Positions 19,007 to 44,279 are shown, counted from the first letter of the stretch. The stretch: 64,000 bases of DNA from Armatimonadota bacterium (GCA_016869045.1 VGFC01000003.1:2170-66169), one strand, 5' to 3'. Notes: a model not told the origin generated them from the sequence alone. Translations and numbers: made by a program.

Positions 19007-19054
19007 GCCCGCAATCAGTACTTGGCGTACGGTGCAATCTCACCGGCTCGGAGG

Positions 19055-22489: not shown

Positions 22490-22567
22490 CCGCCTTGCCC
22501 AATCGGGGGCGCCGCCCCGCCGATGCGGGCGGGGCAGGAACAACACTCCGAACGGGCAAGCAGGCAG

Positions 22568-28494: not shown

Positions 28495-28606
28495 GGTGTC
28501 CTCCGGGCGGGCTGACTGACGCACGGGGCGCGTATTCCAGCGGAGAGGGGCCACCCCCTCCTGGCGCGAACACTCGCGCCGCGACACCCCCCTCCCGAAA
28601 GGACGC

Positions 28607-30604: not shown

Positions 30605-31338
30605 GGCGAGTGCCCCGTCCGTTCCTTGGCTTCCTGAACGTCGATGACCATCTGTGGGTCCCGCAGGCGGAACCCGCCCGTCTCCAGCTTGTAGGTCAGG
30701 TCCCGCCCGACTCCCTCGCTGCGGTCCGTCTGCATGCGGATCTGGTTTGGGCAGTACACCGTCTGCGTCGGCGTGTCGAACCGCAGCCCGGCGGTGATGA
30801 CGGTGACCTTGTCCTGCGTGCGCAACATCACCTGCCCGGGCGCGGTGAGATTGCGGCTCTTGTTGTCCCAATGCACCTGGTTGGTGGTGATGACGGCGCC
30901 CTTGGGCGAGACCACGCGCACGTTGCCCTCAACATCGAAGTCGTAGCTCGTGGTGTCGTACTTCACCGTGTTGGCGGTCACGCGTACGGCCGGGTGGCCC
31001 TGCTTGTCGTAGATGAGACCCTCTCGCATAGCGCCGGCAGTCACCGTCTGGCCACCCGTCTCAACGGACAGATGCGCGAGCTTCACTTTCCAGGTCGGTC
31101 GGCCGCCCTCGAAGTGCTCCGGCGCGAACTGCTCGACCTCAACGACCGGCTGCTTGCCCTCCTCCTGGGTCGGCCCGACGGTCCCGGGCGTCGCCCCCGC
31201 CGGCTGACGGCGCACATACAGGACCGCGCCGGCGATCAGGCCCACCAGAATGACGAGCAGCACGGTTGTCGTGAGGGCGCGGACGGACACAGAGTTGGCC
31301 TCTTGGCGCGGCGTTCCCAAAGGGTGCGCGGGAAGCAC
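30601..31338 (-). CDS. lptC: LptC-like membrane-anchored periplasmic protein
   Basis: Single N-terminal TM (LTTTVLLVILVGLIAGAVLYV) followed by beta-jellyroll-like region; position immediately upstream of and translationally coupled to the LptA-like gene. Confidence 0.45.
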   Translation of the reverse strand: MLPAHPLGTPRQEANSVSVRALTTTVLLVILVGLIAGAVLYVRRQPAGATPGTVGPTQEEGKQPVVEVEQFAPEHFEGGRPTWKVKLAHLSVETGGQTVTAGAMREGLIYDKQGHPAVRVTANTVKYDTTSYDFDVEGNVRVVSPKGAVITTNQVHWDNKSRNLTAPGQVMLRTQDKVTVITAGLRFDTPTQTVYCPNQIRMQTDRSEGVGRDLTYKLETGGFRLRDPQMVIDVQEAKERTGHSP

Positions 31339-31344
31339 GGCACT

Positions 31345-31508
31345 GGGCGTGATGAATCACGCCCCTACACGGGGGCACGATGAATCGTGCCCCTACATGA
31401 CGGCGATCCACGGCCCTGCGCGAAGTAGGGGCGCGATTCATCGCGCCCGGTTGTGTAGAGGCGCCATTCATGGCGCCCGCCAACCCTTCTCATGCAGCGC
31501 CCCTACAG
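31345..31508. repeat. REP/BIME-like cluster A: 4-5 palindromic units of consensus TGTAGGGGC-NN-GATTCATC-NN-GCCCC in both orientations (REPIN-like)
   Basis: Units at 31345..31369, 31371..31397 (GTAG head on minus), 31425..31448, 31454..31478 (head on plus), partial 31497..31508. Stem dinucleotides vary (GT/AC, AC/GT, GC/GC, CC/GG) but keep complementarity. ORFs called over this region (e.g. 31250..31585) are spurious. Confidence 0.7.
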
Positions 31509-32123
31509 CGGCGGCGGCGGCGGGCCAAAGGAGAGCAGGACGTTGCCGAGGTCGGTGGTCTGGCCCGACGACACCGGCACGTTGAACCGGATGGTGCCGG
31601 CGGTGGTGCTTGGGTCGTAGAAGTTCACCTGCGCCGAACCGGCCGGGACGTTGTAGAGCGTGAAGCGACCCGATCCGTCCGCACGCGACAGCGCCGAGAT
31701 CGTACCGGACTGCACGATCCCGCCGCTGACCGCGGAGTTGTTCGAGGCCAACACGAGCCTGCCCGTGACGGCTCCCCGCCCAAGGTTCAGCGTGGGCGCC
31801 AGATACACGGTGCCCACGCTGTTCTGGCCGGCAGACAGCGTCACGGGCACGTTGGAGGAATCGTGGCCGCCCGCCGTCACACTCAGCATCTGGTTCCCGG
31901 TAGGCGCATCATTGATGGTGAAGCGCCCGTCGGCGCCGGTCTGCGCGCTCGCCGTGTTCCCGACGCGGGCCGTAGCGTTGGCGACCGGCGCCTGGGTTCC
32001 GTCGTCCACCACGCGACCGGTCACGGTCGCGACTCCCCCTCCGGCGCCGCTGCCGCCGCAGCCCGTGATCGTAGCCGCGAGGAAGCCGGCAAGTAGCACC
32101 GCGATTGAGACTCGTGCAGTCAT
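31503..32123 (-). CDS. Lipoprotein with two carboxypeptidase-regulatory-like (CarboxypepD_reg) domains
   Basis: Lipobox ITGC; TVTGRVVDDGTQAPVANATARV...DGRFTINDAP and VTGRLV...DGSGRFTLYNVPAG patterns. Confidence 0.55.
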   Translation of the reverse strand: MTARVSIAVLLAGFLAATITGCGGSGAGGGVATVTGRVVDDGTQAPVANATARVGNTASAQTGADGRFTINDAPTGNQMLSVTAGGHDSSNVPVTLSAGQNSVGTVYLAPTLNLGRGAVTGRLVLASNNSAVSGGIVQSGTISALSRADGSGRFTLYNVPAGSAQVNFYDPSTTAGTIRFNVPVSSGQTTDLGNVLLSFGPPPPPL

Positions 32124-32206: not shown

Positions 32207-32818
32207 CTACGGCTGCATGGGGTGCTCGTATCGGGGCGCAAGCAGGACCTGTCCGACGTCCACCGTGGCGCGGGGCGTCACCGTGACGGTGCGCTGCGCG
32301 CTGTCCCAGTCGCTGGACTGGAAGTCGATCTGGCGCGTGCCGGCAGGGACGTTGTACAGCGTGAAGCGACCAGCGCCGTCGATGTCGGATCGCGAGACTG
32401 CCCACGCTCTGCCGCACTGAATGCGTGCCCCGCGGACGGGGCCCTCCTGGAAACGCGCAACGGTCCCCGTCACCGCCCCGCAGTGCGCGCGCAGCGTCGG
32501 TGCGATGCGCGCTGTGGTGTCGGGTAGGCGCTTCGGCACCACCACGGTGAGCGGGTCGTAGCCGGTGGCCACGACGAACAGCCCCCGCTCTCCCGCGGGC
32601 ACGCCGTCGAGCCTGAACTCACCCCGGGCGTTCGTCTGCGTGCTCGGCCCGTGGTGGACGCTCACCGTGGCGTTGGCAACGGGCCACTCTGTTCCGTCAT
32701 CCACAACCTGACCCCAGATGCTCCTGACGCCCCCGCCTCCATCCCCGCCACCACAGCCGACCAACAGGGATACCGCCGCACCGGCAAGTAGTACCGCGAG
32801 TAACCCTCGGCAGCTCAC
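32207..32818 (-). CDS. Lipoprotein with carboxypeptidase-regulatory-like domain(s), paralog of 31503..32123
   Basis: Probable GTG start at 32818 preceded by AAAGGGGGAG RBS; lipobox LLVGC; IWGQVVDDGTEWPVANATVSV...RGEFRLDGVPAG and ...DGAGRFTLYNVPAG. Confidence 0.5.
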   Translation of the reverse strand: MSCRGLLAVLLAGAAVSLLVGCGGGDGGGGVRSIWGQVVDDGTEWPVANATVSVHHGPSTQTNARGEFRLDGVPAGERGLFVVATGYDPLTVVVPKRLPDTTARIAPTLRAHCGAVTGTVARFQEGPVRGARIQCGRAWAVSRSDIDGAGRFTLYNVPAGTRQIDFQSSDWDSAQRTVTVTPRATVDVGQVLLAPRYEHPMQP

Positions 32819-32859: not shown

Positions 32860-33246
32860 CTAGCCGACCCCCGCCGGGCGCCACGTCGGTTGGAGCTGGT
32901 AGTAGTACCTGACCCGCACGACGGCCGTCGGCGGGACGATACGCCGGAAGATGATGCGGCCGATCTCCCGGTCCACGTCGTAGTCCGCGCCCTCCTGCTG
33001 CTCGACGCCATCGACGAGCACCAGGAGGGCCTCGCGGACGATCGTCTCCTTGCCATTCACGACGGCCCTCGCCCCATCGGCGAGGAGGGGCTGGAACCGC
33101 AAGTCGAACGGCCCCGTCGAGCCGGAGCCCTGGAAGAGGTCCTCGCTGAACCGGGCCGTATCCTGCAGCGCTCCGCCGCTGCAGCCAGCGAGTCCGACCA
33201 GCGTGAGGCCCACCAGCGGTACCGCGAGCCGCATCCCGGCGCGCAA
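32860..33246 (-). CDS. Small lipoprotein carrying one copy of the beta-domain repeated inside the giant OM protein (37548..41111)
   Basis: Lipobox LAGC; ARFSEDLFQGSGSTGPFDLRFQPLLADGARAVVNGKETIVREALLVLVDGVEQQEGADYDVDREIGRIIFRRIVPPTAVVRVRYYYQ is ~65% identical to residues ~296-380 of the giant OM protein. Confidence 0.5.
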   Translation of the reverse strand: MRAGMRLAVPLVGLTLVGLAGCSGGALQDTARFSEDLFQGSGSTGPFDLRFQPLLADGARAVVNGKETIVREALLVLVDGVEQQEGADYDVDREIGRIIFRRIVPPTAVVRVRYYYQLQPTWRPAGVG

Positions 33247-33274
33247 GGCACTCCCTCCCCCGTCCTACACGGCC

Positions 33275-34465
33275 TCAAGGCGCCGTGATCACGAAGTCCA
33301 CGCCCGTCTTCACGCGGCCGGCGCCCTTAAGCTCCACGGACTTGGTGATCGTGACGCCCTTGAAGGAGACCTCGATCACGTACTGCCCGCGTGGGACGAA
33401 CAGGCCGTACTCGCCGGCGGCATTCGTGACGGCGGTGTCGATGACCTGGTCTGTCGCGTCGTCGATGGCCTTGACGGTCGCGCCAGCGTTGTCCGGGTTG
33501 TTGAGAATCGTGACCGTCCCGCTGATCGTCGCCGGGCCGGGCGGAGGCTTGGCCTCGCTCGGCGCGAGCTGGACCTGCAGGTCCGACATCCCCGGCGTGA
33601 CGGTCACCGTGTCGCTGAAGGGATCGTAGTCGGTCGCGGTGACCTGGATGGTCTGGTCGCCGACCGGGACCTCGATCAGCGCGAAGTGCCCATCCTGATC
33701 GGTCGTTGCAGGCCCCACGCCGCCGATTGTTACGCTTGCGTCCTCGATCGGATCGCGGGTGATCAGGTCGGTCACGCGGCCGGAGACGTTCGCCTTGCTG
33801 GTGGTGGCGACGAGCTTGAAGTCCAAGGCGGGGTTGGTGCCCTCGCCCTGCGCAACCACGATCTGCTTCGTGTTCGTCAGGAAGCCCTGGGCGGTCGCCG
33901 TGGCCAGCGTCGCGCCCGTGGGCACGCCGCGAACGGTGTACTCGCCCGCGTTGTCGGTGGCCGCCTTGATGCCCTCCGGCGTGCCGGGAATGTCCGGCGC
34001 GAACTCCAGGCGCACGTTCGCCACCGGGTTGCCGCTGTCCAGGTTGGTGACGGCGCCGGAGACCGTGCCGGTGGTGCTCGGGTCGGCCGCCTCCATGTCC
34101 ACCTGCGTCTGTGTCGTGCCGTTGGGGTTGAGCTGCAGGTCCTCGAAGTAGGTGACAAAACCCTCCGCGTTCACGGTGAGCGGCTGGGTCGGCGGATCGG
34201 AGTTGCCGAAGGGCACAGCCGACACACGGACTCCCTGGTCTCCTGCGGCCGTCGTGGCCTTCTCACCCCCGATGACCACGGTGGCCTCGACCCCGAGGGG
34301 CTCCCCGTTGTCGGCCCGGAGAATCGTGACGTCGATGGTCGCCTTTCCCGCGTCCGGGCCCGGGTTGATCTTGATCATGCTGGCGCTGCACCCGGCCAGG
34401 AGGGGCAACAAGGCCCAGGCCAGTGCGCGACAGTGGTTCGGGTTGCGGATGAGGGAGCGGACCAC
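33275..34465 (-). CDS. Lipoprotein with multiple carboxypeptidase-regulatory-like / Ig-like beta-sandwich domains
   Basis: Lipobox LAGC; four-fold repeats of the VSG(A/R)VT(N/D)L...P(V/I)...A.V......DG.F pattern. Confidence 0.55.
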   Translation of the reverse strand: MVRSLIRNPNHCRALAWALLPLLAGCSASMIKINPGPDAGKATIDVTILRADNGEPLGVEATVVIGGEKATTAAGDQGVRVSAVPFGNSDPPTQPLTVNAEGFVTYFEDLQLNPNGTTQTQVDMEAADPSTTGTVSGAVTNLDSGNPVANVRLEFAPDIPGTPEGIKAATDNAGEYTVRGVPTGATLATATAQGFLTNTKQIVVAQGEGTNPALDFKLVATTSKANVSGRVTDLITRDPIEDASVTIGGVGPATTDQDGHFALIEVPVGDQTIQVTATDYDPFSDTVTVTPGMSDLQVQLAPSEAKPPPGPATISGTVTILNNPDNAGATVKAIDDATDQVIDTAVTNAAGEYGLFVPRGQYVIEVSFKGVTITKSVELKGAGRVKTGVDFVITAP

Positions 34466-34474
34466 TTCGGACTC

Positions 34475-37400
34475 CTAGCGGTTGACCCAGGTTCTGCCGA
34501 TCCCGTGCGCGACCTGGCCATCCTCTGACCGCGCCGTCAGCTCGATCAGATACGCCCCGTTGGGCACCGGCGCGCCGGTGGCACCACGGAGGTTCCACAC
34601 CAAGGTCGAGCAGCCCGTGGTCTGCGGCTTGTCTAACACCAGGTCCCGGACCGGGCGACCCGCGATGTTCAGAATGCGCACGCTGACGGCGGCATCCGCC
34701 GAGAGCGCGTAGGTGATGGCCATGCTCTGCCCGCTCTGGGCGCCAATCAGGCCCGTCACGGCGAGGTTGGCGCCCTTGTCCCGACGCAGGACGATCTCCA
34801 GGCCGCACGGCGTGCCGGTTCCCGTGAACTCATACCCGCCGGAGGTGCGCATGTACACGGTACGGCCGCGCGCTCGGTCAAGCAGCACGGGCCGGAACTC
34901 CTGGGGTACCTGCGACAGGTCCGGCCAGCGCAGGCGCGCGCGCACCCCTCGCGGGAGGTTGGCCACGCGCAGCTTCCAGGGGCCGCGCGCTCGGGGGCCG
35001 CGGAAGTCGGAGGCATACTCGCCCGCGTTGGGGCCCCAGTCGTCGTTCGCGAAGTGCAGCGTCGGCTGGTCGCCGAAGGGCGGGGGCGCCTGCAGGTCAC
35101 ACCGGGCATCGAAGCCGTCGCCCGCGGACCGGGCGGCACCCATCGTGGCCGTGCTGCGAGAACTGCCGACGTCCAACGTCAGCGCCGTCTGCCAGAGGGT
35201 CTTGCCGAAGGGCGAGCTGTCCGCCGAGGCGGTCCGCTCCTTGGTAGATGCGGCCGCAGTGCTCGTCGGGAAGAGGAGCGTGGCGCCCTCGGGCAGCAGG
35301 CAACGCAGCCAGTAGCCCTCGAAGGGCTTCAGCTTCTGGGTCAGCTCATAGCCGGACTGCTGGCTGTAGGCCCACAGGCCGCCCTGGACCCAACCGTCGG
35401 TGATCGCGTCCGCGAAGGGCTCCGAGTCCGCCGCGCCGCGCTGGACCAGCAGTTCCCCCAGGTCCACGTTCCGGTTGCGCGCGCAGCCGATCATGTTCCA
35501 GCCCGCATTCATCTTGACCGGGACGTCGTCGCTGTCCGGCGGCAGGATGCCGTCCACGGCGATGGTCACGTCCGACAGCACGCGCAGCCAGTACCCGAGG
35601 CCCGGCGCCAGCGGGTCGATGGTCGGGTAGATGTCGTACGTGCCGCCGCCGGGCGCATTGGGCTTCCAGCGGGCAAGCAGGAGCTTGTCGTTGGGGATGC
35701 CCAACGCGCGCGCCGGGTCCTGCTCGATGCACCAGAGCGGCACCGAGATCATGTAGAGCCCGTTCGTCCCCACCGGGAGGTTCTTGGCCAGCGCACTGCG
35801 CGCGCCGGCCGGGAAGAGAACGTCGTACGAGTCGAAGGCCACGTTCACCTTGCGGGTGACCTGGTTGCCCTTGCCGTCGTCGAAGGTGATCTCAAGCTGC
35901 GTCGGCGAGAGCCCCGTGTCGCTGACGATTCCGCCCCACACGCCCCTCTTGACCTCCACATCGGTGAGGCCGTCGAGGCCGACAACGTTGATCGTTCCCT
36001 CGATCGGGCCGATGATGCAGCCGTAGAGGTTGTTCTCGCCCGGGTCGAAGCCGCGCACGCCGTACGGGAACGGATACCGCGCCCAGAGGCCGTTGATCTC
36101 GATCTGCACCGTAATGCGTTGCGGGCCGCCCACGTTGAAGAAGGTGGGCAGCAGGAAACCCTCTCCCGCGGAGTCCCCTGTCGCGGGGATCGTGATCTCG
36201 TTGCCCTCCTGGGCGAAGAGTGTGAGCGTGAAGTCGTAGTTGAAGTAGGTCGTGTACGCCGTGCCGCCCTTGGGGATTTCATCCCCCGTCGGAGTCGTCT
36301 CGTAGTGCTCGACGATCAGCGCCACCGCGTCCGTCAGCGGGATATTCCAACAGTACATCTTCGGGCCGACGGTCACGCTGGTATCCAGAGCATACTGCTG
36401 CCGGTACCACGACACGAAGGGGGAGCCCTCCACGTTCGGCAGCACCGTCTGGCAGACTTCCAGTAAGCTCGGCGTGTCGCCCGCGAGAGCGGTTTGCTCG
36501 CCGGCCGACAGCGAGTTCAGCTTCGCGTAGTACCGGGTGTTGAAGCGCAGGAAGAACTGCGGGTCCTCGGTGTAGCACTTGAACCAAGCCACCCGCGCCT
36601 CGGCGATGCGCCAGACGAGCATCCCGGAGAAGCCCGGGGGATACCAGGTGCTGTTGCCGAGCGGCGGCTGGTTCATCGGCTCATACACGGAGCCGGAGTA
36701 GAACGGCCCGGGGTTGGCGGGGTCGTAGCCGGGGGACGCGCCCGGGGAGATCTGCACCGCCGTCGCCGCAGCGCCGATCATCCCCTGCTCCCAGCTGTCG
36801 TAGAAGAGCGCCACGTCGTCGCGGAACGCGTTGAGGACGAGCATGATCAGGACGAACGAGTCCTCCGGGAAGTTGCCGGAGAGCTTCGGCAGCCGCAGCT
36901 CGTTCGTCGTCACATCATAGGTGCCGCCCTGCAGCGTCTGAAGGGTGTCGTCCTGGATGATCTTCACCGTGGTGTCGAAAGCCGGCGGGCCGTAGATCGC
37001 GCGGGCGATGGGCATCGCGTCGTCGAGGTAGGCCTGCAGGGCCTGCTCATCCGACGTGGACCAGCCCTCGTACTGGAAGGTGATGTTGTTGGCCGGGTCG
37101 CCGATCGTGACGCCGCTCGTGCGGGCGCGATAGAGGTCTGGCAGAATGGGTCGCCCGGCGCGCGTGTGCACGATCATACGGGGCACGCGCAGTTCGGCCC
37201 GAGGTTCGATCCCCCTGGTGCGCAGGAAGCGCACCGCCGCGGCGGCCTGGCTGAGCGCCCGCGGGGAGTGTTGCTGGGCGATGGCATCCCGCACGGCTTG
37301 CTTGCGGGCGGCCGTGTCGAGGACGGTCGAGGCAGGGCCGTCGACTACGATGGCGCCCTGCGGCCCATCGCTGATGGACGCGAAGGGAGCGTTCCACACG

Positions 37401-37528
37401 TTGCGGAACCCGTTCGGCCCACCGTAAGCCGCGCTGCCTAGAACGAGAGCGAGAACCGCCACCCCAAGAGCTGCTCGCCCTCGGAGACAGTCGTGCCGAG
37501 CCTTCTCCGCAACTCCACTACTCCGCAT
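34475..37528 (-). CDS. Large secreted protein (~1017 aa) of unknown function with the same ~330-aa C-terminal module (ending in FlgD-Ig/T9SS-CTD-like domain) as the two S8 proteases
   Basis: Likely start ATG 37528 (MRSSGVAEKARHDCLRGRAALGVAVLALVLGSAAYG signal) preceded by GGAG. The ORF's 190-aa N-terminal extension overlaps the upstream gene and is probably not translated. C-terminal blocks GWNMIGC..., WPDLSQVP...RPVL.D...GRTVYMRT..GY, ...VSVRILNIAGRPVRDL...WNLRGATGAPVPNGAYLIEL. Confidence 0.6.
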   Translation of the reverse strand: MRSSGVAEKARHDCLRGRAALGVAVLALVLGSAAYGGPNGFRNVWNAPFASISDGPQGAIVVDGPASTVLDTAARKQAVRDAIAQQHSPRALSQAAAAVRFLRTRGIEPRAELRVPRMIVHTRAGRPILPDLYRARTSGVTIGDPANNITFQYEGWSTSDEQALQAYLDDAMPIARAIYGPPAFDTTVKIIQDDTLQTLQGGTYDVTTNELRLPKLSGNFPEDSFVLIMLVLNAFRDDVALFYDSWEQGMIGAAATAVQISPGASPGYDPANPGPFYSGSVYEPMNQPPLGNSTWYPPGFSGMLVWRIAEARVAWFKCYTEDPQFFLRFNTRYYAKLNSLSAGEQTALAGDTPSLLEVCQTVLPNVEGSPFVSWYRQQYALDTSVTVGPKMYCWNIPLTDAVALIVEHYETTPTGDEIPKGGTAYTTYFNYDFTLTLFAQEGNEITIPATGDSAGEGFLLPTFFNVGGPQRITVQIEINGLWARYPFPYGVRGFDPGENNLYGCIIGPIEGTINVVGLDGLTDVEVKRGVWGGIVSDTGLSPTQLEITFDDGKGNQVTRKVNVAFDSYDVLFPAGARSALAKNLPVGTNGLYMISVPLWCIEQDPARALGIPNDKLLLARWKPNAPGGGTYDIYPTIDPLAPGLGYWLRVLSDVTIAVDGILPPDSDDVPVKMNAGWNMIGCARNRNVDLGELLVQRGAADSEPFADAITDGWVQGGLWAYSQQSGYELTQKLKPFEGYWLRCLLPEGATLLFPTSTAAASTKERTASADSSPFGKTLWQTALTLDVGSSRSTATMGAARSAGDGFDARCDLQAPPPFGDQPTLHFANDDWGPNAGEYASDFRGPRARGPWKLRVANLPRGVRARLRWPDLSQVPQEFRPVLLDRARGRTVYMRTSGGYEFTGTGTPCGLEIVLRRDKGANLAVTGLIGAQSGQSMAITYALSADAAVSVRILNIAGRPVRDLVLDKPQTTGCSTLVWNLRGATGAPVPNGAYLIELTARSEDGQVAHGIGRTWVNR

Positions 37529-37548
37529 CTCCGCATCTCCTGCCGTCT
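37491..37548 (-). repeat. Tandem GGAGATGC GGAGATGC GGAG direct repeat at the 5' end of the 34475..37528 gene
   Basis: Minus-strand sequence ...GCAGGAGATGCGGAGATGCGGAGTAGT...; provides two in-frame ATGs each preceded by GGAG. Confidence 0.4.
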
Positions 37549-40500
37549 CACACATCGCGCATGTCATCGATGGGGAACTCCGTGCCGCTCTGGGCCCAGG
37601 GGTCGGCGACGAGCGGCTGTGGCGCGGGCGGACGTGGACCCGTGTCGCCATAGGGCCCCGACATGCCCGTGCGCCAGCCACCACCGAAGCCGCCCGGGTA
37701 GCTGCCGTAGTCGCCATCGTAGCCCCCGTACCCCTCCAGGCCGCCTCCGTAGCTCTCTCCGTAGGGGCCGCTGTAGGGACTGAAGGCCGAACCGGTGCCG
37801 CCGAAGCTCGGCATCCCTTCGTCGAAGCCACCGAAGTCGCCGGAGAGCCCTCCGCGCGAGTAGTAGCTGCCGCCTCCTGGGAAGTAGCTGCCGCCGCCTC
37901 CTGGCAAGTAGCTGCCGCTGCCAGGGAAGCTGCCGCCCCCGCCTCGGTAGTAGCGGCCGCCGCCGAAGCCTCCCCCCAGCGAGCCGAAGCCCGGCTGACC
38001 GATGTAGCCGTAGCTGCCATAGGAGCTGGAGGCCCCCGTCCCCATGAGCGGGCTGTAGTTCCCGGGCCCGAAGAAGTCGCCGGAGGAGGCGCCACTCCGC
38101 GGCAAGCTCAGCCCACCCAGGAAGCCGCTGCCGTAGCCGCCCCTGCCGTAGCCCATGAGGCCGCCGTAGCCGGGCGTGATCGGGCGGTTCAGGCCCTCGC
38201 CTTGGTCCCGCTCGCCCCGGAGGGTGGACTGGAAGTTCGTGCTCAGCGAGAAGACCAGCAGGTTCGTCGTGTAGTCCTCGCCCTGATAGGTGTAGCCCGG
38301 CGTCGTGCCGCCCCCGGACTGTGACAAGCGCGAGTTGTTGTTGATGAACTGCCAGCCCAAGTTCAGGCCCACCGAGTTGCTCAACTGATACTGGAGCCCG
38401 ATGTCGGCGGTGGCCTTCATGAAGTCGGCGAAACCGCCCTTGAAGTCGCTGACCCCGAACCGGGCCGCCAGGCGCGCACGTTCGGCGAGGCGGTACTCGA
38501 CATTCGCCATGACGTCAAACAGGCTCGTGTCAACGAGGTCCGCGACCTCGTTCTGCCCGAAGCCCGAGTAGTTCGGGCTCACCCCCCACTGCCGGTTGAC
38601 CGAGAGGCCGTAGGTGAAGGGGCTGTTCTGCGGGCGGTAGGTGCCGCTGAAGGTCAGGCTGTTGTTCACCACGCCGCCCCGGCCGGCATCGAGGAACTGC
38701 AGCAGGTCGGAGCCCAGAGAGACGTTGAAGGCCATGTCCTGGTTCGGGAGCCAGCTCAGGGAGACGTTGCCGTAACGCTGGTTGCTGTCGGCCAGATAGC
38801 CGACCGACCCCGCGCTGTCGTAGCTCCGCAGGCCGAAGTTGGCGTCCACGCTCAGTGAGCTGCTCGGCTGAAACGAGATGCCCAGCCGCGCCGACGAGTC
38901 GCGGTACTGGTTGAGTTCGGGTTCCTCGTCGTCGGGTGTCCCGCCGCCACCCCCGATCGGCGCGCGGACCACGTCCCCCGTCAGCCCAAACGGATAGCCG
39001 CCCGGGTTCCCGCCCCAGCCGCCGCCCATCCCCGGCGTATAGCCGCCGAAGCCGATGCCACCGCCGTAGAAGCCGCTCGTGACCGCCCCGAGCGATTCGG
39101 TCTGCGTCCAGTCCAGGTTCACGCTCAGCTTCTGCATCGGTTGCCAGCGCGCGCTGACCTGGAAGTTGCTGGAGTCGCCGCGCTGGTCCTTGTACTGGCT
39201 GCGCGAGGTGTTGCTGTTCCAGTTCGTCGCGAAGGCCAGCTTGTCGGTGGGCATCCAGGACGCGGCGAGGCTGAGCGACTGCGTGTCGCTGGACTGGGCC
39301 GAACCGAAGGGGTCGCTGTCGTCGCCGGTGGTCGTGCCGGCGTAATTCTGCCGCGTGCTGATCCATCCGGCATGGAAGGTCATCGGCGTCTTCGGCGTCT
39401 TCGGCGAGTAGTCGAGGCTCGCGTTCAGCGTCTCCAGCAGGCTGTCGCCGCGGCTGCCCCCCGAGTTTGTCATGCTCTGCCGGGACAGGCGCAGCGAAGG
39501 CCAGCCCGGATAGCTGACCGATAGGTTCGAGTCGTGGCGCACCGCCCGGATGTCCAGTGTCTTGGGCGTCTCGTCCTCCGTCTGCGACCGGCCGTCCCCG
39601 TAGTTGTAGTCGCCCCCGTAGTAGCCACCGTAGCCGCTGTAGCCGTGGGTGTATCCCGAGTTGGTCTTGACATCTGAGAAGGTGTGCGCGAACTGGATGT
39701 GCTGGTTCGGGCGGAAGCCCACGGCGGCGTTGAGGCCCTTCTCACTCCGGAAGAAGCCCACCGTATCGACGTATCGGAAACCCGGATCGATGTTGCGGTA
39801 CTGGAGGTTCACGTCGAGTTTCGACCCGCGGCTGAAGCGCAACCCGCCGCTCAGCGCGTTGCCTGCCGCGGCGCCGCCGACCGGATCGCTGCGGGCGAAC
39901 GCCGCGTCCCAGCTCAGGCTGTTACTCAACTGGTGCCGCAGCGCCAGCCCGGTAACGGCGCTGTCGCCGGAGAAGCTGTCGCCCGGGCCAATCTGGTAGT
40001 AGTACTTGATCCGCACGACCGACGTCGGCGGGACGATCCGGCGGAAGATGATCCGACCGATCTGGCGGAGCGAGTCGAAGTCCACCCCCTCGCGCTGCTC
40101 CACGTTGTCCACCAGCACGATCAGCGCCTCCTCGTGGAGGACCTTCTCCTTGCCGTTGATGATGGCCTTAGCCCCGTAGGCCAGGATGGGGCTGAAGCGG
40201 ACGTCGAACGGCCCTGTCGAACCGGAGCCGTAGAAGATGTCGTCCTGGAAGCGCGCGGTATCGGCGGCGCCGCCGGCGCCCGAGGTGTGCTCCAGGCGCG
40301 TCAACACCAGCTGCAGGCGGTCGCCCAGCAGCGCGCTCTCCATCTGCAGGCCCTGCGTGGTGCCGCCCGATTCGTAGTTGGTGGCCGACTGGTAGCTGAC
40401 CGTGATCGTGTGGGTACTGGGGATGATCCGGGGGGACTTGCCGGGCACCTCGAAGAGGAGTTGGCCGGTGTCGTAATCCAGGACGTAGTCCACCCCGAAG

Positions 40501-41111
40501 TAGACCACGTCCTCATTGATCTTCACGCGCTCGGTTCCCTCGACGATCGGCGTGAAGGTCAGGAAATACGGCCCGGACGTGTTGTTGCCCAGGAAGGTCT
40601 GTCGCCTGACGAGACCTTTCTCCTTCGACTGGAACGCGCGGAACAGGAAGTTCGGCCCGACGAGTTGGTCGAGCTGCCAGCCCTTCAGGCTCTTGGTATA
40701 GGAGGCGAACTCATTCCCCGCCAGCCGGACGTTCAGGTCGCCCCACAGCAGCGCGGAGTGCTTGCTCTGCCACCCAAGCATGAGGCGGTTGTCGTTGTAC
40801 CCGTAGCCGCTATTGGCGATGTGAGCCTGAACGCCGAAGTTCTTCCAGATCGGGCCGAAGACGTCGAAGCTCGTCGTCGCCTGCATCATCCCCGTGTTCC
40901 AGAACTGCGACTCGTAGGCCTCCCGCGAGCCCTGCGTGAAGTCGCCGCGCACGGAGAAGTCGCCCCGCCCGGTGACCTGCAGGCCCTTGAACAGCCCGAG
41001 ACCATCCAGCGCATCGCCGATGGAATCGAAGGCATCCGCGCCGGCCCGACTCGTAGGACACAGCAGCAGACAGGGGATTGCGAGAGCGAAGGCGGCGCCC
41101 CAACCGCGCAC
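37548..41111 (-). CDS. Giant (1187-aa) predicted outer-membrane beta-barrel protein with N-terminal tandem beta-domain repeats and Gly/Tyr/Ser-rich low-complexity C-terminal region
   Basis: Signal peptide MRGWGAAFALAIPCLLLCPTSRAGA; at least two internal copies of the G..(S/T)GP(F/Y).(L/V).F(S/T)PI(L/V)... domain; long run of amphipathic beta-strands (LSVNLDWTQ, LGISFQPS, VSLSWLPNQ, ANVEYRLAE, IGLQYQLSN, VGLNLGWQF, LLVFSLSTNF); C-terminal GGYGSGFLGG...GGSYFPGGGSYYSRGG... tail. Confidence 0.55.
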   Translation of the reverse strand: MRGWGAAFALAIPCLLLCPTSRAGADAFDSIGDALDGLGLFKGLQVTGRGDFSVRGDFTQGSREAYESQFWNTGMMQATTSFDVFGPIWKNFGVQAHIANSGYGYNDNRLMLGWQSKHSALLWGDLNVRLAGNEFASYTKSLKGWQLDQLVGPNFLFRAFQSKEKGLVRRQTFLGNNTSGPYFLTFTPIVEGTERVKINEDVVYFGVDYVLDYDTGQLLFEVPGKSPRIIPSTHTITVSYQSATNYESGGTTQGLQMESALLGDRLQLVLTRLEHTSGAGGAADTARFQDDIFYGSGSTGPFDVRFSPILAYGAKAIINGKEKVLHEEALIVLVDNVEQREGVDFDSLRQIGRIIFRRIVPPTSVVRIKYYYQIGPGDSFSGDSAVTGLALRHQLSNSLSWDAAFARSDPVGGAAAGNALSGGLRFSRGSKLDVNLQYRNIDPGFRYVDTVGFFRSEKGLNAAVGFRPNQHIQFAHTFSDVKTNSGYTHGYSGYGGYYGGDYNYGDGRSQTEDETPKTLDIRAVRHDSNLSVSYPGWPSLRLSRQSMTNSGGSRGDSLLETLNASLDYSPKTPKTPMTFHAGWISTRQNYAGTTTGDDSDPFGSAQSSDTQSLSLAASWMPTDKLAFATNWNSNTSRSQYKDQRGDSSNFQVSARWQPMQKLSVNLDWTQTESLGAVTSGFYGGGIGFGGYTPGMGGGWGGNPGGYPFGLTGDVVRAPIGGGGGTPDDEEPELNQYRDSSARLGISFQPSSSLSVDANFGLRSYDSAGSVGYLADSNQRYGNVSLSWLPNQDMAFNVSLGSDLLQFLDAGRGGVVNNSLTFSGTYRPQNSPFTYGLSVNRQWGVSPNYSGFGQNEVADLVDTSLFDVMANVEYRLAERARLAARFGVSDFKGGFADFMKATADIGLQYQLSNSVGLNLGWQFINNNSRLSQSGGGTTPGYTYQGEDYTTNLLVFSLSTNFQSTLRGERDQGEGLNRPITPGYGGLMGYGRGGYGSGFLGGLSLPRSGASSGDFFGPGNYSPLMGTGASSSYGSYGYIGQPGFGSLGGGFGGGRYYRGGGGSFPGSGSYLPGGGGSYFPGGGSYYSRGGLSGDFGGFDEGMPSFGGTGSAFSPYSGPYGESYGGGLEGYGGYDGDYGSYPGGFGGGWRTGMSGPYGDTGPRPPAPQPLVADPWAQSGTEFPIDDMRDV

Positions 41112-41205: not shown

Positions 41206-42279
41206 TCAGGGCGTCAGGTGGGCCTCGACAACATCGAGGTTCCGCTCCGCCTGAGCGCGGAGTTCGTCGGCGAAGGCGGCCCGGGCCGCGGCGGTCGCGT
41301 CGCGCTCGGACCAGGCTCGGTCGATGAGGTGGAGGACCTCCTCGAGGTCCGCCTCCAGGGGGGCCCACAGGGCGTGGGCGCCGCTGGCGAACGCCGCGAC
41401 CTTGGGGTCGTACGACAGCGCCACGAACGGCACCGCCTGCGCCGCGGCGAAGATGCACGCGTGAAGGCGCATCGCGATCACGAAGTCGAGGCTGCGCACC
41501 AGCCCCACCCACTGCGCCGGCGATAGCTCACGGTCCACCCCGACCGCGCGGACACCCAGCATCTCGGCCGCTTGCGAGGCGAGGTGGGTGTCCTCTTTGG
41601 CATGCAGCGCCAGTGGGACGATCTGCGCGCCGTGGCGCTCCGTGAACTGCTTGGCCGCCTCCAGCGCGTGGGTCAGCGCCGCCTCGGCGCCCTGCGCCTC
41701 ACGCAGCGCGAGGCCCACGCGTGGACCGCCCTCTCGCGAGGGCAGCCAGTGCGCCACATCCTCCGGCGGCGCCGGGTCCACCAGCGCGGCGAGGTCAGCC
41801 GTGATGGCGATGCTCTCGGCCGGCACGCCCATCTGGACGAGCAGCCCCGCGGAGTTGCCATCCCGGACGGTGATCCCCGCCGCCCGGCGGAACAGGCGAG
41901 CGGTCAGGGCGCGCGTCAGCCGGTGTCTCAGTGGACCGATGCCTTGGCCCAGCACGACGAAGGGCGTCCGTCGCAGCCTCGCCAGGGCCAGGATGCCCAG
42001 ATAGTACAGCGCCGACCGGACGCTGGTCGAGTCTTGGATCAGCCCTCCGCCCCCCTGCAGGACGAGGTCCGCCGCGCCGATCTGCCGCCAGAGGGTCGGG
42101 TAGTGCCGCCGCGGCGCCGCGTGCACGCCGTGGGCCGCGTGGGTCGCGGGCGGGTCGGCGGACAGGACGACCAGCTCCGCGTCGGGCCGACGGCGTCGCA
42201 GCCCGCCGAACATGCCCGCGAGGATCGCCTCATCACCCGCGTTGCCCAGTCCGTAGTAGCCGCAAATCAGGATGCGCAT
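41206..42279 (-). CDS. csaB: Polysaccharide pyruvyl transferase CsaB family
   Basis: Start at ATG 42279 (MRILICGYYGLGNAGDEAIL...); PF04230-like blocks (GGGGLIQD, LGQGIGP, MRLHA). Confidence 0.75.
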   Translation of the reverse strand: MRILICGYYGLGNAGDEAILAGMFGGLRRRRPDAELVVLSADPPATHAAHGVHAAPRRHYPTLWRQIGAADLVLQGGGGLIQDSTSVRSALYYLGILALARLRRTPFVVLGQGIGPLRHRLTRALTARLFRRAAGITVRDGNSAGLLVQMGVPAESIAITADLAALVDPAPPEDVAHWLPSREGGPRVGLALREAQGAEAALTHALEAAKQFTERHGAQIVPLALHAKEDTHLASQAAEMLGVRAVGVDRELSPAQWVGLVRSLDFVIAMRLHACIFAAAQAVPFVALSYDPKVAAFASGAHALWAPLEADLEEVLHLIDRAWSERDATAAARAAFADELRAQAERNLDVVEAHLTP

Positions 42280-42284
42280 GGGGT

Positions 42285-44279
42285 TCACGCGGCGTCGTCC
42301 GTATCCGGTACGAAGCGCCGCCGGAAGGCCTGCCAAACGCGCTCGCCGAGCTCCACCACGGCGTACAGCAGCCCGCCCAGGACCGCGCCAACCCACAGCC
42401 CGTGCAGCGTGCGCGCGACCGAGATCAGGACCGGTGTGTGGAGATGGCTGAACGTGTTGACCATCGACACCTGGCCGACCGTGCCGAGCGCCAGCAGCGC
42501 CCACAGGCCGCCCCGCTTCCCGGCCATCGCCCGCGCGACCGCGAGCACGAGGAGTGGGTGGCCGATCAGCAGCTCCTTCGTACGCGGTCGCACGCCAAAC
42601 ACGCGATCCAGCACCGCGCGGAACTGCAGCTCGAGGCCGGAGACACCAACCCCGCTCTCGTTCCCGCTACGCAGCAAGAGCAGCCCCAGACCCGCCACGC
42701 CGACCAACAGCAGCGCCGTGTGCCAGTACTTCACGACGGCCTGGCCGGCCACTCGCCAGCCGCGCAGGAGCGTCGTCAGCGGCGCCTCGCCCTCCGCGGC
42801 TCCGTGTCCGCCCAGACCCCAGCCGATCTGCAGCAGGAGCACGGCCAGCATGGGAACGAGATGCGAGATCTTCACACCGGAGAACTGGTCGAGCTTCACC
42901 AGGAATCGCGTGTCTGCGAGGCAGCCGATGATGAACAGGCCGGCCAGGAGACTGATGCCGGACGATGCGGCGAACAGCAGGAGAGCGCGGAAACTAGGGA
43001 CAGGCCCCAATTTCGGACATGGCGTCCGTCCGAAATTGGGGCCTGTCCCTAGTTTCCGCCCGACAGCAAGCGTCGGCAGCGCCAACGCGCCAAGAAGGGC
43101 GCAGAGCTTCGCCATCGGGGTGAGGGCCGCGAAGGCGCCAGCCAGCGCCAGCACCGCTGCAACTGCGATGATCGCGATCACCCAGAGCGGACGGCACCCG
43201 AGCAGTTCGAGGAGGCACAGACCCAGCGCGCCGATCACCCCGAGCATCGCCAGCCAGCGGAGGATCGCCGACACTTCGAGGCGCCCATACGGCTCCGGCG
43301 CACCCAGCTCGAAGCCGTGGGACTTCAGGCGGGTCGCGAGCTTGCTCACATACCCCTCGGCTGCGGCGACCGGGTCGGGCCCGCAGGGCTCGAACAGCCG
43401 AACGTAGCACGCGCGGATGTTGCGCTCGCGCACCGCCAGCGTGAAGCGATCCGCCGCGCGCTGCACACTGGTGCCGAGCATCTCCGTCTCGTTGATGCTG
43501 TGCACGCGGATGAGGCTGTGCGGCAGACGCGAAGCCAGCGCCATGTCGCCATACTGCTTGCCGAACTCGACGTAGCCGAACAGTAGCCCCTGCCGCGCGA
43601 ACGCGTCGGCCACGCGGGCGATGTCCGTGGGATAGCCCGGGGCCGCGGTGCCGGCGAAGATCACCAGCCGCGCGTTGCGCTCCTTCGCGAGGGTCAGCGC
43701 GGCATCGGCTGCCTTCTGCCACTGGTTGCTTTCGGCAAAGGGCCGCGGGACGAAGGCCAGGCCGGCCTGGTTGATCTCCTGCACGGCGGACAGGGGATAG
43801 CCGATCCCGATGTCGAGGATGTCGGCGGGGTCACCGGATCGCAGGTCGAGCCGGTACGTGCGCGCCGCTACCGGAGCGAAGGTTGCCGCTCGCTGCCCGA
43901 GGCGCTCGACGAGGCTGCGATGCAGCCGCTGAATCGTCTCCGAGGGCCCGACGAACGAGGCGGTCGGTGGCGGATAGGGCGCCCCCTCATCGCGCGCGCG
44001 CGGCGCCGAGGCCACCTCACCGGCCTGCATGGCGGTGCGGAGGGTCTGCTCCGTGATGGCGACGTGGGTGGCGCCGGCCTTCTGCAGGCGCGTCAGCACC
44101 TCGCGCGTCGTGAGGCCGCCGACCGTGGACAGCTGACGGAGCTGGTCGTAGTCCAGGATCAGCGCGACGGTCCGGTTCGCGCTCTCCACGCGGACGCGGG
44201 CAGCCGCCGCCACGAGGGCGGCGCCTGCGCCGATGGCCAGTAGGATCAGGCAAGCGTAGCGGGCGTGGTTTGTGGTCAT
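42285..44279 (-). CDS. Multi-TM membrane protein (N-terminal periplasmic domain + ~10 TM), DUF5693-like partner commonly paired with csaB
   Basis: 664 aa; N-terminal TM then ~330-aa soluble domain, then many TM helices; immediately upstream of and co-directional with csaB; contains an in-frame 69-bp palindromic element. Confidence 0.5.
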   Translation of the reverse strand: MTTNHARYACLILLAIGAGAALVAAAARVRVESANRTVALILDYDQLRQLSTVGGLTTREVLTRLQKAGATHVAITEQTLRTAMQAGEVASAPRARDEGAPYPPPTASFVGPSETIQRLHRSLVERLGQRAATFAPVAARTYRLDLRSGDPADILDIGIGYPLSAVQEINQAGLAFVPRPFAESNQWQKAADAALTLAKERNARLVIFAGTAAPGYPTDIARVADAFARQGLLFGYVEFGKQYGDMALASRLPHSLIRVHSINETEMLGTSVQRAADRFTLAVRERNIRACYVRLFEPCGPDPVAAAEGYVSKLATRLKSHGFELGAPEPYGRLEVSAILRWLAMLGVIGALGLCLLELLGCRPLWVIAIIAVAAVLALAGAFAALTPMAKLCALLGALALPTLAVGRKLGTGPNFGRTPCPKLGPVPSFRALLLFAASSGISLLAGLFIIGCLADTRFLVKLDQFSGVKISHLVPMLAVLLLQIGWGLGGHGAAEGEAPLTTLLRGWRVAGQAVVKYWHTALLLVGVAGLGLLLLRSGNESGVGVSGLELQFRAVLDRVFGVRPRTKELLIGHPLLVLAVARAMAGKRGGLWALLALGTVGQVSMVNTFSHLHTPVLISVARTLHGLWVGAVLGGLLYAVVELGERVWQAFRRRFVPDTDDAA
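42989..43057. repeat. Perfect 30-bp inverted repeat with 9-bp spacer (69-bp palindromic element) inserted in-frame in the 42285..44279 CDS; MITE/RPE-like
   Basis: Left arm ggaaactagggacaggccccaatttcggac (42989..43018), spacer atggcgtcc, right arm is its exact reverse complement (43028..43057). 69 bp = 23 codons (RKLGTGPNFGRTPCPKLGPVPSF); ~57% GC versus ~68% background. Confidence 0.7.

What the first reader, a model, noticed from the sequence alone, without database searches (positions are those of the whole stretch)
32860..41111. Giant (1187-aa) OM beta-barrel with internally repeated beta-domain that is also encoded (~65% identity) in a neighbouring small lipoprotein; possible novel envelope machine
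The 37548..41111 product has a signal peptide and at least two tandem copies of an ~85-aa domain (G..SGPF.VRF.PIL...INGKE...EEALIVLVDNVEQREGVDFD...IGRIIFRRIVPPTSVVRIKYYYQ; second copy GNNTSGPYFLTFTPIV...YVLDYDTGQLLFEVPGKSPRIIPSTHTITVSYQ). These are followed by a very long run of amphipathic beta-strands (a large barrel) and a Gly/Tyr/Ser-rich disordered tail. The 128-aa lipoprotein 32860..33246 is essentially a single free copy of the same domain. Such high identity between a barrel-embedded domain and a separate lipoprotein suggests recent duplication or a plug/partner relationship. That would be analogous in principle to LptD/LptE or BamA POTRA/lipoprotein pairs. The gene is flanked by a CTD-tail protein, four CarboxypepD_reg lipoproteins, LptC/LptA-like genes and csaB. 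This is a co-directional envelope-biogenesis array that does not match a described system.
Basis: partly seen in the sequence, partly recalled or inferred. Interest (0 to 1): 0.75.

Follow-up and report, generated by a model that had tools for sequence, protein, structure and literature searches.

The report
Giant undescribed outer-membrane barrel module
This Armatimonadota gene encodes an unusually large outer-membrane barrel (about 34 strands) from an undescribed family that sits in a conserved operon with lipopolysaccharide-bridge genes, so it may be the outer-membrane LPS inserter, while the small look-alike lipoprotein is only an optional extra copy of one barrel domain.

Summary
The 1187-aa product (37548-41111, minus strand) has a signal peptide and two related beta-sandwich domains, D1 (residues 175-245) and D2 (286-375). 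It also has a very large beta-barrel and a roughly 225-aa Gly/Ser/Tyr-rich disordered tail. The 124/128-aa lipoprotein (32860-33246) is a free copy of D2: 59% identity over 123 aa, E 8e-45.

About 90 homologue clusters exist, all unannotated, one copy per Armatimonadota genome. The barrel gene is always followed by a roughly 730-1050-aa orphan secreted protein and a roughly 400-aa CarboxypepD_reg lipoprotein. LptC/LptA genes follow in 33 of about 45 loci with enough sequence. This includes deep lineages where LptC and LptA are fused.

The free lipoprotein occurs in only two lineages, at the same operon position. It is absent from relatives whose barrel is 62-74% identical, so it is an accessory paralogue and not the general partner.

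Best inference (about 35-40%): the module is the outer-membrane end of the Lpt bridge, a non-homologous LptDE analogue. I could not check whether a canonical LptD exists elsewhere in these genomes.

The parts
37548..41111 (-). Giant outer-membrane beta-barrel protein, 1187 aa. Signal peptide, about 34 strands, two inserted beta-sandwich domains and a disordered C-terminal tail.
40590..40979 (-). Barrel strands S1-S7 (residues 45-174), which precede the first inserted domain.
   Evidence: DSSP of the AF2 model. Mean pairwise identity 0.55 across 69 homologues.
40377..40589 (-). Domain D1 (residues 175-245), a beta-sandwich inserted after strand 7.
   Evidence: 28% identity to the lipoprotein, which is a free copy of D2 (E 1e-6). 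It is the second profile match in all family members. Most conserved region of the protein, mean pairwise identity 0.68.
39987..40256 (-). Domain D2 (residues 286-375), a beta-sandwich inserted after strand 9. It is the parent of the free lipoprotein.
   Evidence: 59-67% identity to the lipoprotein. Mean pairwise identity 0.65 among homologues. Fold resembles phage tail and baseplate domains.
38223..39962 (-). Barrel strands S10-S34 (residues 384-963). Includes two Gly/aromatic-rich disordered loops (484-520 and 676-734) and the invariant F960 near the C-terminal end of the last strand.
   Evidence: AF2 DSSP. Alternation of short turns with long loops (my reading). F960 is invariant in 69 sequences. 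Loop composition.
37551..38222 (-). Disordered Gly/Ser/Tyr-rich C-terminal tail (residues 964-1187), predicted periplasmic, ending in a conserved acidic/aromatic motif.
   Evidence: pLDDT below 35. A tail of 74-260 aa is present in all 69 homologues, with clade-specific W/D-rich ends.
34475..37528 (-). Conserved partner 'P1017' (1017 aa): a secreted orphan protein whose C-terminal FlgD_ig domain occurs only in the long versions.
   Evidence: Follows the barrel gene in essentially every locus with flank. Pfam shows only FlgD_ig, and the roughly 730-aa versions have no domain at all. No PDB relative by sequence or profile.
33275..34465 (-). Conserved lipoprotein of 396 aa with CarboxypepD_reg repeats.
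   Evidence: Pfam CarboxypepD_reg E 1e-31. Lipobox LLAGC. Follows P1017 in every locus that reaches it except the distant L077 and L079.
32860..33246 (-). Small lipoprotein: 124 aa from the ATG at 33234, or 128 aa from the TTG. A free copy of D2 and an accessory component.
   Evidence: AF2 mean pLDDT 85.6. Only four clusters of free copies, all with lipoboxes. Found at the same operon position in L110. Absent from L003-L006 and L080-L082.
32207..32818 (-). Lineage-specific extra CarboxypepD_reg lipoprotein (203 aa), a paralogue of the next gene.
   Evidence: 43% identical to Cpd206 and to the single roughly 200-aa gene of relatives. Pfam.
31503..32123 (-). Conserved CarboxypepD_reg lipoprotein of about 200 aa (206 aa here).
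   Evidence: 68% identical to the single-copy gene in L081 and L082. Pfam.
30601..31290 (-). LptC, the inner-membrane-anchored OstA-fold protein.
   Evidence: NCBIfam TIGR04409 at 47.5 bits, above its cut-off of 38. Conserved downstream in 33 loci.
29678..30604 (-). LptA-like periplasmic OstA-domain protein (308 aa), the last gene of the array.
   Evidence: Pfam OstA_2 at 48 bits and LptD_N at 36.5 bits, both above cut-off. Fused to LptC in deep lineages L072 and L076.
41206..42279 (-). CsaB polysaccharide pyruvyl transferase, immediately upstream of the barrel gene.
   Evidence: TIGR03609 at 282 bits. Adjacent to the barrel gene in the window subclade and again in distant Fimbriimonadales loci L076-L078.
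42285..44279 (-). DUF5693 membrane protein, paired with CsaB.
   Evidence: Pfam E 2e-140. The pairing is seen in L005-L007, L076-L078 and L080-L082.

Best explanation
**What it is (high confidence, about 0.85).** The 1187-aa protein is the membrane core of an undescribed envelope module that is conserved across Armatimonadota and present once per genome.

- It is a single-chain outer-membrane beta-barrel of about 34 strands.
- Two phage-tail-type beta-sandwich domains, D1 and D2, are inserted in consecutive loops. They are the most conserved parts of the protein.
- Two Gly/aromatic-rich disordered loops lie on the same side as D1 and D2, which I infer to be the extracellular side.
- A 74-260-aa disordered tail (about 225 aa in this protein) lies on the periplasmic side.
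- The gene is co-transcribed with an orphan secreted protein of about 730-1050 aa, one lipoprotein of about 400 aa and one or two of about 200 aa (all CarboxypepD_reg), and usually LptC plus an LptA-type protein.

**How it most likely works (inferred, about 0.35-0.4).** The barrel, the orphan protein and the lipoproteins form the outer-membrane station where the LptC/LptA bridge ends. The complex would receive lipopolysaccharide, or a related glycolipid, and insert it into the outer leaflet. That would make it a functional analogue of LptD/LptE built from unrelated parts. D1 and D2 would serve as conserved docking or plug modules for the partner subunits.

**The small lipoprotein.** It is a lipid-anchored spare copy of D2 that arose within one subclade. 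It has been kept in only two sampled lineages, so it is an accessory subunit and not part of the core mechanism.
For: **Shown**
- Fold, strand count and disorder come from AF2. The strands have dyad hydrophobicity.
- All long insertions fall on the same side of an alternating short-turn/long-loop pattern.
- D1 and D2 are the most conserved regions, 0.68 and 0.65 mean pairwise identity against 0.36-0.55 for the barrel segments.
- There is one locus per MAG in 74 genome loci.
- The triad of barrel, P1017 and the roughly 400-aa lipoprotein is present in nearly every locus with enough flank, even where the barrel is only 26-28% identical.
- OstA-family genes lie downstream in 33 of about 45 loci with sufficient flank. 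In the deepest lineages there is a single fused LptC-LptA gene at the end of the same cluster.
- LptC passes its NCBIfam cut-off, and the LptA-like protein passes the OstA_2 and LptD_N cut-offs.
- Genes are tightly spaced, with gaps of 9-83 nt and an LptC/LptA overlap.

**From the literature**
- LptD/E have not been found in LPS-bearing diderm Firmicutes (PMC5007114).
- They are reported as never found in the 'atypical diderm' Terrabacteria, although lptA, B, C, F and G are present (PMC8871954).

**Lipoprotein as accessory:**
Against: - Neither the barrel protein nor P1017 has a detectable OstA/LptD_N jellyroll to receive LptA. Pfam finds none, and hhalign against the local OstA profile gives probability 1-2%.
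- The barrel has about 34 strands, not 26. Structural matches to LptD are no better than those to MtrB, TonB-dependent transporters or porins.
- About 12 loci with adequate flank lack Lpt genes next to the module.
- The related giant barrels of Margulisbacteria sit between queA and an amidase gene, with no Lpt genes nearby.
- I could not check whether these genomes carry a canonical LptD/LptE elsewhere. The literature cited did not analyse Armatimonadota for LptD.
Barrel closure, lumen occupancy and the side on which D1 and D2 lie are therefore inferred from DSSP and loop lengths only.
Confidence: 0.4

Rival explanations
1. The module is a giant gated pore or surface complex for moving large cargo across the outer membrane. 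It would take up polymers or export and display P1017 and other proteins, analogous in principle to SprA (type 9 secretion) or SusC/D complexes. D1 and D2 would be surface docking domains, P1017 a cap or cargo, and the Lpt genes merely neighbours in an envelope super-operon.
For: - A 34-strand barrel implies a lumen far wider than a lipid translocon needs.
- P1017 and two subtilases in the same window carry the same C-terminal FlgD_ig domain, which could be a sorting tag.
- The Margulisbacteria relatives lack Lpt neighbours.
- The organism is rich in glycoside hydrolases.
Against: - There is one copy per genome, set in a housekeeping context, unlike nutrient-specific loci.
- The FlgD_ig domain is absent from the short P1017 versions, so it cannot be the core recognition signal.
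- No other type 9 secretion components were seen in the window.
- The Lpt linkage persists down to 26% barrel identity and through an LptC-LptA gene fusion, which is hard to explain by chance neighbourhood.
Confidence: 0.25
2. The barrel is a major structural outer-membrane protein that tethers the outer membrane to the cell wall, as SlpA and OmpM do. Here the tether would be the long flexible periplasmic C-terminal tail, whose conserved aromatic/acidic end binds peptidoglycan or pyruvylated secondary cell-wall polymer.
For: - DUF5693 and CsaB (polymer pyruvylation) lie immediately upstream in the window subclade and again in distant Fimbriimonadales.
- Every homologue has a 74-260-aa disordered tail after the last strand, with clade-conserved W/D-rich termini.
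- The best whole-query TM-scores are to the 30-strand SlpA of Deinococcus, 0.25-0.27.
Against: - No SLH domain is present.
- Armatimonadetes are reported to have OmpM homologues for this role (bioRxiv 10.1101/2021.05.31.446380).
- CsaB adjacency is absent from most clades.
- This reading explains neither P1017, the lipoproteins, the conserved D1/D2 nor the Lpt linkage.
Confidence: 0.15
3. One reading: the small lipoprotein is the dedicated plug or partner of the barrel, in the manner of LptE with LptD or the BamA lipoproteins. The high identity would reflect that partnership.
For: - The lipoprotein keeps every invariant residue of D2, so it is a functional domain.
- It is encoded inside the operon at the same position in two lineages whose module proteins are only 50-62% identical.
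- All four known free copies have lipoboxes.
Against: - It is absent from 33 of 34 related loci that reach that position. These include relatives whose barrel is 62-74% identical, where the intergenic gaps of 59-160 nt leave no room for the gene.
- Only four clusters exist in the protein collections searched.
- A standard lipoprotein would face the periplasm, whereas D2 is predicted on the opposite side of the membrane.
Confidence: 0.1

Closest known systems
LptD/LptE outer-membrane LPS translocon (Proteobacteria)
   Same: - A large outer-membrane barrel encoded together with lipoproteins.
- A genetic link to the LptC and LptA bridge proteins.
- One copy per genome.
- LptD is among the top Foldseek matches, E 5e-10.
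   Different: - No LptD_N/OstA jellyroll and no PF04453 match.
- About 34 strands rather than 26.
- Two beta-sandwich loop insertions and a long disordered tail.
- The partner lipoproteins have the CarboxypepD_reg fold, not the LptE fold.
- There is an extra orphan subunit of 730-1050 aa.
SprA (Sov), the 36-strand type 9 secretion translocon of Bacteroidota
   Same: - Neighbouring proteins carry an Ig-like C-terminal domain.
   Different: - SprA has about 2400 aa with a large extracellular cap, whereas this protein has about 1100 aa with minimal loops.
- No sequence similarity was detected.
- No PorV, plug or other type 9 secretion genes were seen in the window.
- Whole-structure TM-score is at most 0.26.
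SlpA (Deinococcus-Thermus) and OmpM (diderm Terrabacteria) tether-porins
   Same: - Terrabacterial giant or large barrels.
- csaB lies next door, and CsaB makes the ligand for such tethers.
- SlpA gives the best TM-scores normalised to the query, 0.25-0.27.
   Different: - No SLH domain and no coiled-coil stalk.
- The periplasmic extension is C-terminal and disordered.
- 34 strands against 30 for SlpA.
- A conserved operon with P1017, lipoproteins and Lpt genes.
DUF2460 / phage distal-tail, baseplate-J and T7 gp17 N-terminal beta-sandwich domains
   Same: - Relatives with more copies pass the Pfam DUF2460 cut-off, E about 1e-10.
   Different: - Here the domain is inserted in loops of an outer-membrane barrel or lipid-anchored, not part of a virion.
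- The window proteins score below the Pfam cut-off, 22 bits against 30.4.
Giant outer-membrane proteins of Candidatus Margulisbacteria (1300-1880 aa, unannotated)
   Same: - The same architecture: N-terminal strands, then D-type domains, then a long barrel. The one member inspected (P0115) ends in a C-terminal Phe.
- Also from a Terrabacteria phylum, also unannotated, and in a fixed genomic position.
   Different: - Three to six D domains instead of two.
- No Gly-rich tail in the member inspected (P0115).
- Genomic context is queA-barrel-amidase, with no P1017, CarboxypepD_reg or Lpt genes.

Membership tests
LptD (LPS-assembly protein) | N-terminal OstA/LptD_N beta-jellyroll that receives LptA | tested here: not met
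   No Pfam or NCBIfam hit. hhalign of the family profile against the local OstA profile gives probability 1.7%. AF2 shows only a short helix before strand 1.
LptD (LPS-assembly protein) | C-terminal LptD barrel domain (PF04453) of 26 strands | tested here: not met
   [not shown]
LptD (LPS-assembly protein) | LptE-type lipoprotein plug | tested here: inconclusive
   Lipoproteins are encoded adjacent, but they have the CarboxypepD_reg or D2 fold, not LptE. Whether any of them sits in the lumen could not be modelled.
LptD (LPS-assembly protein) | Functional or genetic coupling to the LptC/LptA bridge | tested here: met
   LptC and LptA lie in the same array in 33 of about 45 loci with enough flank, including fused LptC-LptA in deep lineages.
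OmpM / SlpA tether-porins | N-terminal SLH domain followed by a coiled-coil stalk | tested here: not met
   No SLH hit. No long helix in AF2.
SprA (type 9 secretion translocon) | A roughly 2400-aa, 36-strand barrel with cap, together with PorV/plug partners | tested here: not met
   [not shown]
TonB-dependent transporter / SusC | N-terminal plug domain (PF07715) and a 22-strand TonB_dep_Rec barrel | tested here: not met
   [not shown]
MtrB/PioB | PF11854 barrel sheathing a multihaem partner | tested here: not met
   No PF11854 hit for the window protein; one homologue, P0063, carries a precomputed hit. No CxxCH motif in any operon protein.
Chaperone-usher usher (FimD/PapC) | PF00577 24-strand barrel with a mid-barrel plug domain plus N- and C-terminal domains | tested here: not met
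   [not shown]
DUF2460-like phage-tail beta-sandwich (for D1, D2 and the lipoprotein) | Match to the PF09343 C-terminal region and a phage-tail-type sandwich fold | tested here: inconclusive
   [not shown]

The most novel reading that the evidence does not exclude
This module is the long-sought outer-membrane LPS translocon of diderm Terrabacteria that lack LptD/LptE. It would consist of a roughly 34-strand barrel with phage-tail-like loop domains, an orphan subunit of about 730-1050 aa and CarboxypepD_reg lipoproteins. Together these would form a non-homologous replacement for LptDE at the end of the LptC-LptA bridge. The related giant barrels of Margulisbacteria would then point to an ancient Terrabacterial solution.

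A still more speculative variant is that the very wide lumen is gated by the protein's own Gly/aromatic-rich disordered loops and tail, in the manner of a nuclear-pore permeability barrier.
Probability: 0.3. Interest if true: 0.9.

Novelty: new variant of a known kind. Interest (0 to 1): 0.65.

Why it matters
How diderm bacteria outside the classical Gram-negative phyla put LPS into the outer leaflet is an open question. LptD/E have not been found in diderm Firmicutes or in other 'atypical diderms', although LptA, B, C, F and G are present (PMC5007114, PMC8871954).

This finding offers a concrete candidate that can be tested. It is a single-copy giant barrel, conserved across a phylum, and genetically welded to LptC/LptA. 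In some lineages it sits next to a one-piece LptC-LptA fusion.

Whatever its function, a predicted 34-strand single-chain barrel would be among the largest known. SprA has 36 strands (established knowledge), SlpA 30, and LptD and MtrB 26. Its conserved phage-tail-like loop domains and its long disordered tail after the beta-signal-like last strand are unusual for substrates of the barrel-assembly machinery.

The finding also defines three unannotated protein families:
- the barrel family;
- the P1017 family;
- the Margulisbacteria relatives of the barrel.

Tried and rejected
**Searches that returned nothing useful**
- Pfam, NCBIfam, PDB sequence and PDB profile searches of the barrel found nothing usable. 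The only hits were a sub-threshold EpsL match of 26 bits against a cut-off of 275.
- Profile and sequence searches of P1017 against the PDB found nothing. Permissive Pfam runs on seven P1017 orthologues gave only FlgD_ig in the long forms.
- hhalign of the barrel and P1017 profiles against the local LptA/OstA profile found no jellyroll.
- The promoter and terminator scan of the array was uninformative, with counts at or below the shuffle expectation.
- Literature searches for a described 34-strand barrel, for DUF5693, or for LptD in Armatimonadota found nothing relevant.

- The afdb50 fold library was unavailable.
- A Pfam scan of the whole alignment exceeded the size limit.
- The word-index homologue search with the small lipoprotein returned only 3 small proteins and missed the barrels, which are 59-73% identical. 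The exhaustive profile search was needed to see them.
- The first metagenome scan with the lipoprotein found nothing. The second found 33 loci, and the match lies in a barrel-length or contig-truncated reading frame in all but one, L110, where the frame is 141 codons.

**Readings rejected**
- OmpM/SlpA membership, because there is no SLH domain.
- MtrB-type electron conduit, because no haem motifs are present.
- TonB-dependent transporter and usher.
- 'Recent duplication', because DNA identity is only about 70% and the copy is shared by two diverged lineages.

Full report
**Source and setting**

The window has 66-71% G+C. The 1187-aa protein is found with exactly the same sequence on JGI contigs from samples 3300020074 and 3300020109. 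All named homologues come from uncultured Armatimonadota, 'candidate division WS1' or Candidatus Zipacnadia.

GC3-filtered ORFs and the JGI gene calls give a tight minus-strand array:

| Gene | Coordinates | Note |
|---|---|---|
| DUF5693 | 42285-44279 | membrane protein |
| CsaB | 41206-42279 | pyruvyl transferase |
| barrel | 37548-41111 | 1187 aa |
| P1017 | 34475-37528 | 1017 aa |
| Cpd396 | 33275-34465 | lipoprotein |
| small lipoprotein | 32860-33234/33246 | free D2 copy |
| Cpd203 | 32207-32818 | lipoprotein |
| Cpd206 | 31503-32123 | lipoprotein |
| LptC | 30601-31290 | |
| LptA-like | 29678-30604 | last gene |

Intergenic gaps are mostly 9-83 nt, and LptC overlaps LptA.

**Checking the observation**

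- BLASTP of the small lipoprotein against the big protein gives 59% identity over 123 aa (E 8e-45) at residues 254-376. A second match of 28% identity (E 1e-6) falls at residues 173-240.
- Over the 95-aa domain core the identity is 67%.
- At DNA level it is about 70% over the 117 aligned codons, with 40% of third positions different. The duplication is real but not recent.
- The small protein has a lipobox, and so do its three other known relatives.
- The Gly/Ser/Tyr-rich tail and the long run of amphipathic strands are confirmed.

**Anatomy of the barrel protein**

AF2 with a 69-sequence alignment gives pTM 0.64. Ten-residue block pLDDT is about 70-95 over the strand regions.

*Strand count.* DSSP lists 34 long strands if 155-164 and 166-174 are read as one kinked strand. 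An even count is required for both termini to lie in the periplasm.

*Topology.*
- From strand 10 onward, connections alternate between short ones (2-8 residues) and long ones (up to 59 residues).
- D1, D2, the two disordered Gly/aromatic loops (484-520 and 676-734) and the other long loops all fall on the same side.
- By the usual rule for outer-membrane proteins, this is the extracellular side.
- This is my inference. I had no access to the coordinates.

*Layout.* The order is S1-S7, D1, S8-S9, D2, S10-S34, then the tail. F960, near the C-terminal end of the last strand, is invariant in 69 sequences and looks like a beta-signal. Every homologue nevertheless continues with a disordered Gly-rich tail of 74-260 aa that ends in clade-specific W/D-rich motifs.

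*Conservation.* D1 and D2 are the most conserved parts of the protein, at 0.68 and 0.65 mean pairwise identity against 0.36-0.55 for the barrel segments. That argues for a core function rather than variable surface decoration.

**What family is it?**

- Pfam finds nothing. NCBIfam gives only a far sub-threshold EpsL hit.
- PDB sequence and profile searches find nothing.
- Foldseek ranks MtrB, LptD, SlpA and SprA first, but TM-scores normalised to the query are at most 0.27.

The protein is therefore an outer-membrane barrel that cannot be superposed on any solved one. This is consistent with a different strand number.

**The repeated domain**

- The free lipoprotein models confidently, with the domain at pLDDT about 95, as an 8-strand beta-sandwich.
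- Pfam gives a sub-threshold DUF2460 hit for the lipoprotein. Relatives with more copies pass that cut-off.
- It is not a POTRA, OstA or SLBB domain.
- An exhaustive profile search of 1.84 billion representative proteins finds only 257 proteins with the domain. They fall into three groups:
  - the Armatimonadota barrels, with 2 copies each;
  - a second family of 1300-1880-aa giant barrels with 3-6 copies, which proved to be Candidatus Margulisbacteria proteins;
  - a handful of free lipoproteins.

**Conserved neighbourhood**

I combined tblastn with two rounds of HMM searching over 79 loci.

- The order barrel, P1017, roughly 400-aa CarboxypepD_reg lipoprotein holds in nearly every locus with enough flank (L077 and L079 are exceptions). 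This includes Candidatus Thermosaccharophagus loci where the barrel is only 26-28% identical.
- OstA-family genes follow in 33 of about 45 loci with enough downstream sequence.
- In the deepest lineages (L072, L076) the cluster ends with a single fused LptC-LptA gene of 476-511 aa.
- One subclade with short P1017 proteins of about 740 aa lacks adjacent Lpt genes.
- DUF5693 and CsaB lie upstream in the window subclade and again in distant Fimbriimonadales (L076-L078). They are absent from that position in most other clades.
- The core of P1017, about 730 aa, has no Pfam domain and no PDB relative. The FlgD_ig C-terminal domain occurs only in the long versions.
- There is one barrel locus per MAG.

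**The small lipoprotein**

- In all related loci from the first genome scan, the best match to the lipoprotein is D2 inside the barrel gene.
- Relatives whose barrels are 62-74% identical (L080-L082) have the order barrel, P1017, Cpd~400, Cpd~200, LptC, LptA. Their intergenic gaps are too short to hide the gene.
- The window lineage carries a two-gene insertion made of the lipoprotein and Cpd203. Cpd206 is the orthologue of the single roughly 200-aa gene (68% identity). Cpd203 is a 43% paralogue.
- One further lineage has a free copy at the same operon position without the extra Cpd gene. This is L110, whose module proteins are 50-62% identical to the window's.
- The gene is therefore old within the subclade, patchy and dispensable. 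It is still under selection, because it keeps every invariant D2 residue.

**Mechanism**

*Shown:* a giant outer-membrane barrel of an undescribed family is the lead gene of a module conserved across the phylum.

*Inferred:* the persistent linkage to LptC/LptA holds across very deep divergence and across a gene fusion. The adjacent lipoproteins and the reported absence of LptD/E from other diderm Terrabacteria point the same way (PMC5007114, PMC8871954). Together these make an outer-membrane terminus of the Lpt bridge the single best reading. I put it at about 35-40%.

*Against it:*
- No jellyroll is detectable in the barrel or in P1017.
- The Margulisbacteria relatives sit between queA and an amidase gene, with no Lpt genes nearby.

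*Rivals:*
- A SprA- or Sus-like giant pore for protein or polymer traffic, about 25%.
- An SlpA/OmpM-like tether using the C-terminal tail, about 15% and not mutually exclusive with the others.
This is refuted as a general mechanism but remains possible as a lineage-specific accessory role.

**Verdict**

The protein and its module belong to no described family. I rate the finding a new variant of a known kind (outer-membrane barrel complexes). There is a realistic chance, about 0.3, that it is a non-homologous LptDE replacement. Interest 0.65.

Noticed in passing
window 18851-22489 (+), 22523-25996 (+), 26059-27093 (+): Two large subtilases (Peptidase_S8) each end in the same FlgD_ig domain as P1017. 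A CarboxypepD_reg protein follows them. The domain may be a phylum-specific surface-sorting or anchoring tag.
   Followed up: partly
L072:18821-20356 and L076:17122-18552: In deep Armatimonadota lineages (Ca. Thermosaccharophagus and an uncultured Fimbriimonas), LptC and the LptA-type jellyroll are fused into one protein of 476-511 aa. The fused gene lies at the end of the same barrel cluster.
   Followed up: partly
L083:10001-15166, L084:10001-14644 (and P0245, no DNA held): Candidatus Margulisbacteria carry unannotated giant outer-membrane proteins of 1300-1880 aa with 3-6 copies of the same domain. In the three loci examined the gene immediately follows queA. In two of the three (P0245, L084) it precedes an Amidase_3 gene and lies near dnaN and dnaA.
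   Followed up: partly
window 37551-37640 (last ~30 residues of the barrel protein) and alignment A1: The disordered tails end in short clade-specific conserved motifs. Examples are GDPW..GG.EFPIDDMRDV, EDWWLLDD..S.WW and RRWWQWYE. This suggests a binding peptide at the end of a flexible tether.
   Followed up: no
window 33160-33246 versus 40260-40352: The BLAST alignment runs on from the domain into the lipoprotein's signal peptide, which aligns weakly with the S8-S9 hairpin of the barrel (LQLVLTRLEHTSG against LTLVGLAGCSG). The signal peptide may have been recruited from duplicated strand-coding DNA, or the match may be chance.
   Followed up: no
window 27409-28608 (-), 28607-29641 (+): Two ORFs lie directly after the LptA-like gene. 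I did not scan them against Pfam. On the JGI contig that carries the same array (L002), the gene next to LptA is called URO-D (PF01208), and a URO-D gene keeps that position in L080-L082.
   Followed up: no
P0063 (homologue of the barrel): One homologue carries a precomputed Pfam hit to MtrB_PioB (PF11854). The window protein has no such hit, and no operon protein has a CxxCH motif.
   Followed up: yes
window 41206-44279 and L076-L078, L080-L082: DUF5693 is always paired with CsaB immediately upstream of the barrel gene in two distant Armatimonadota clades. No paper in the searchable library mentions DUF5693.
   Followed up: partly
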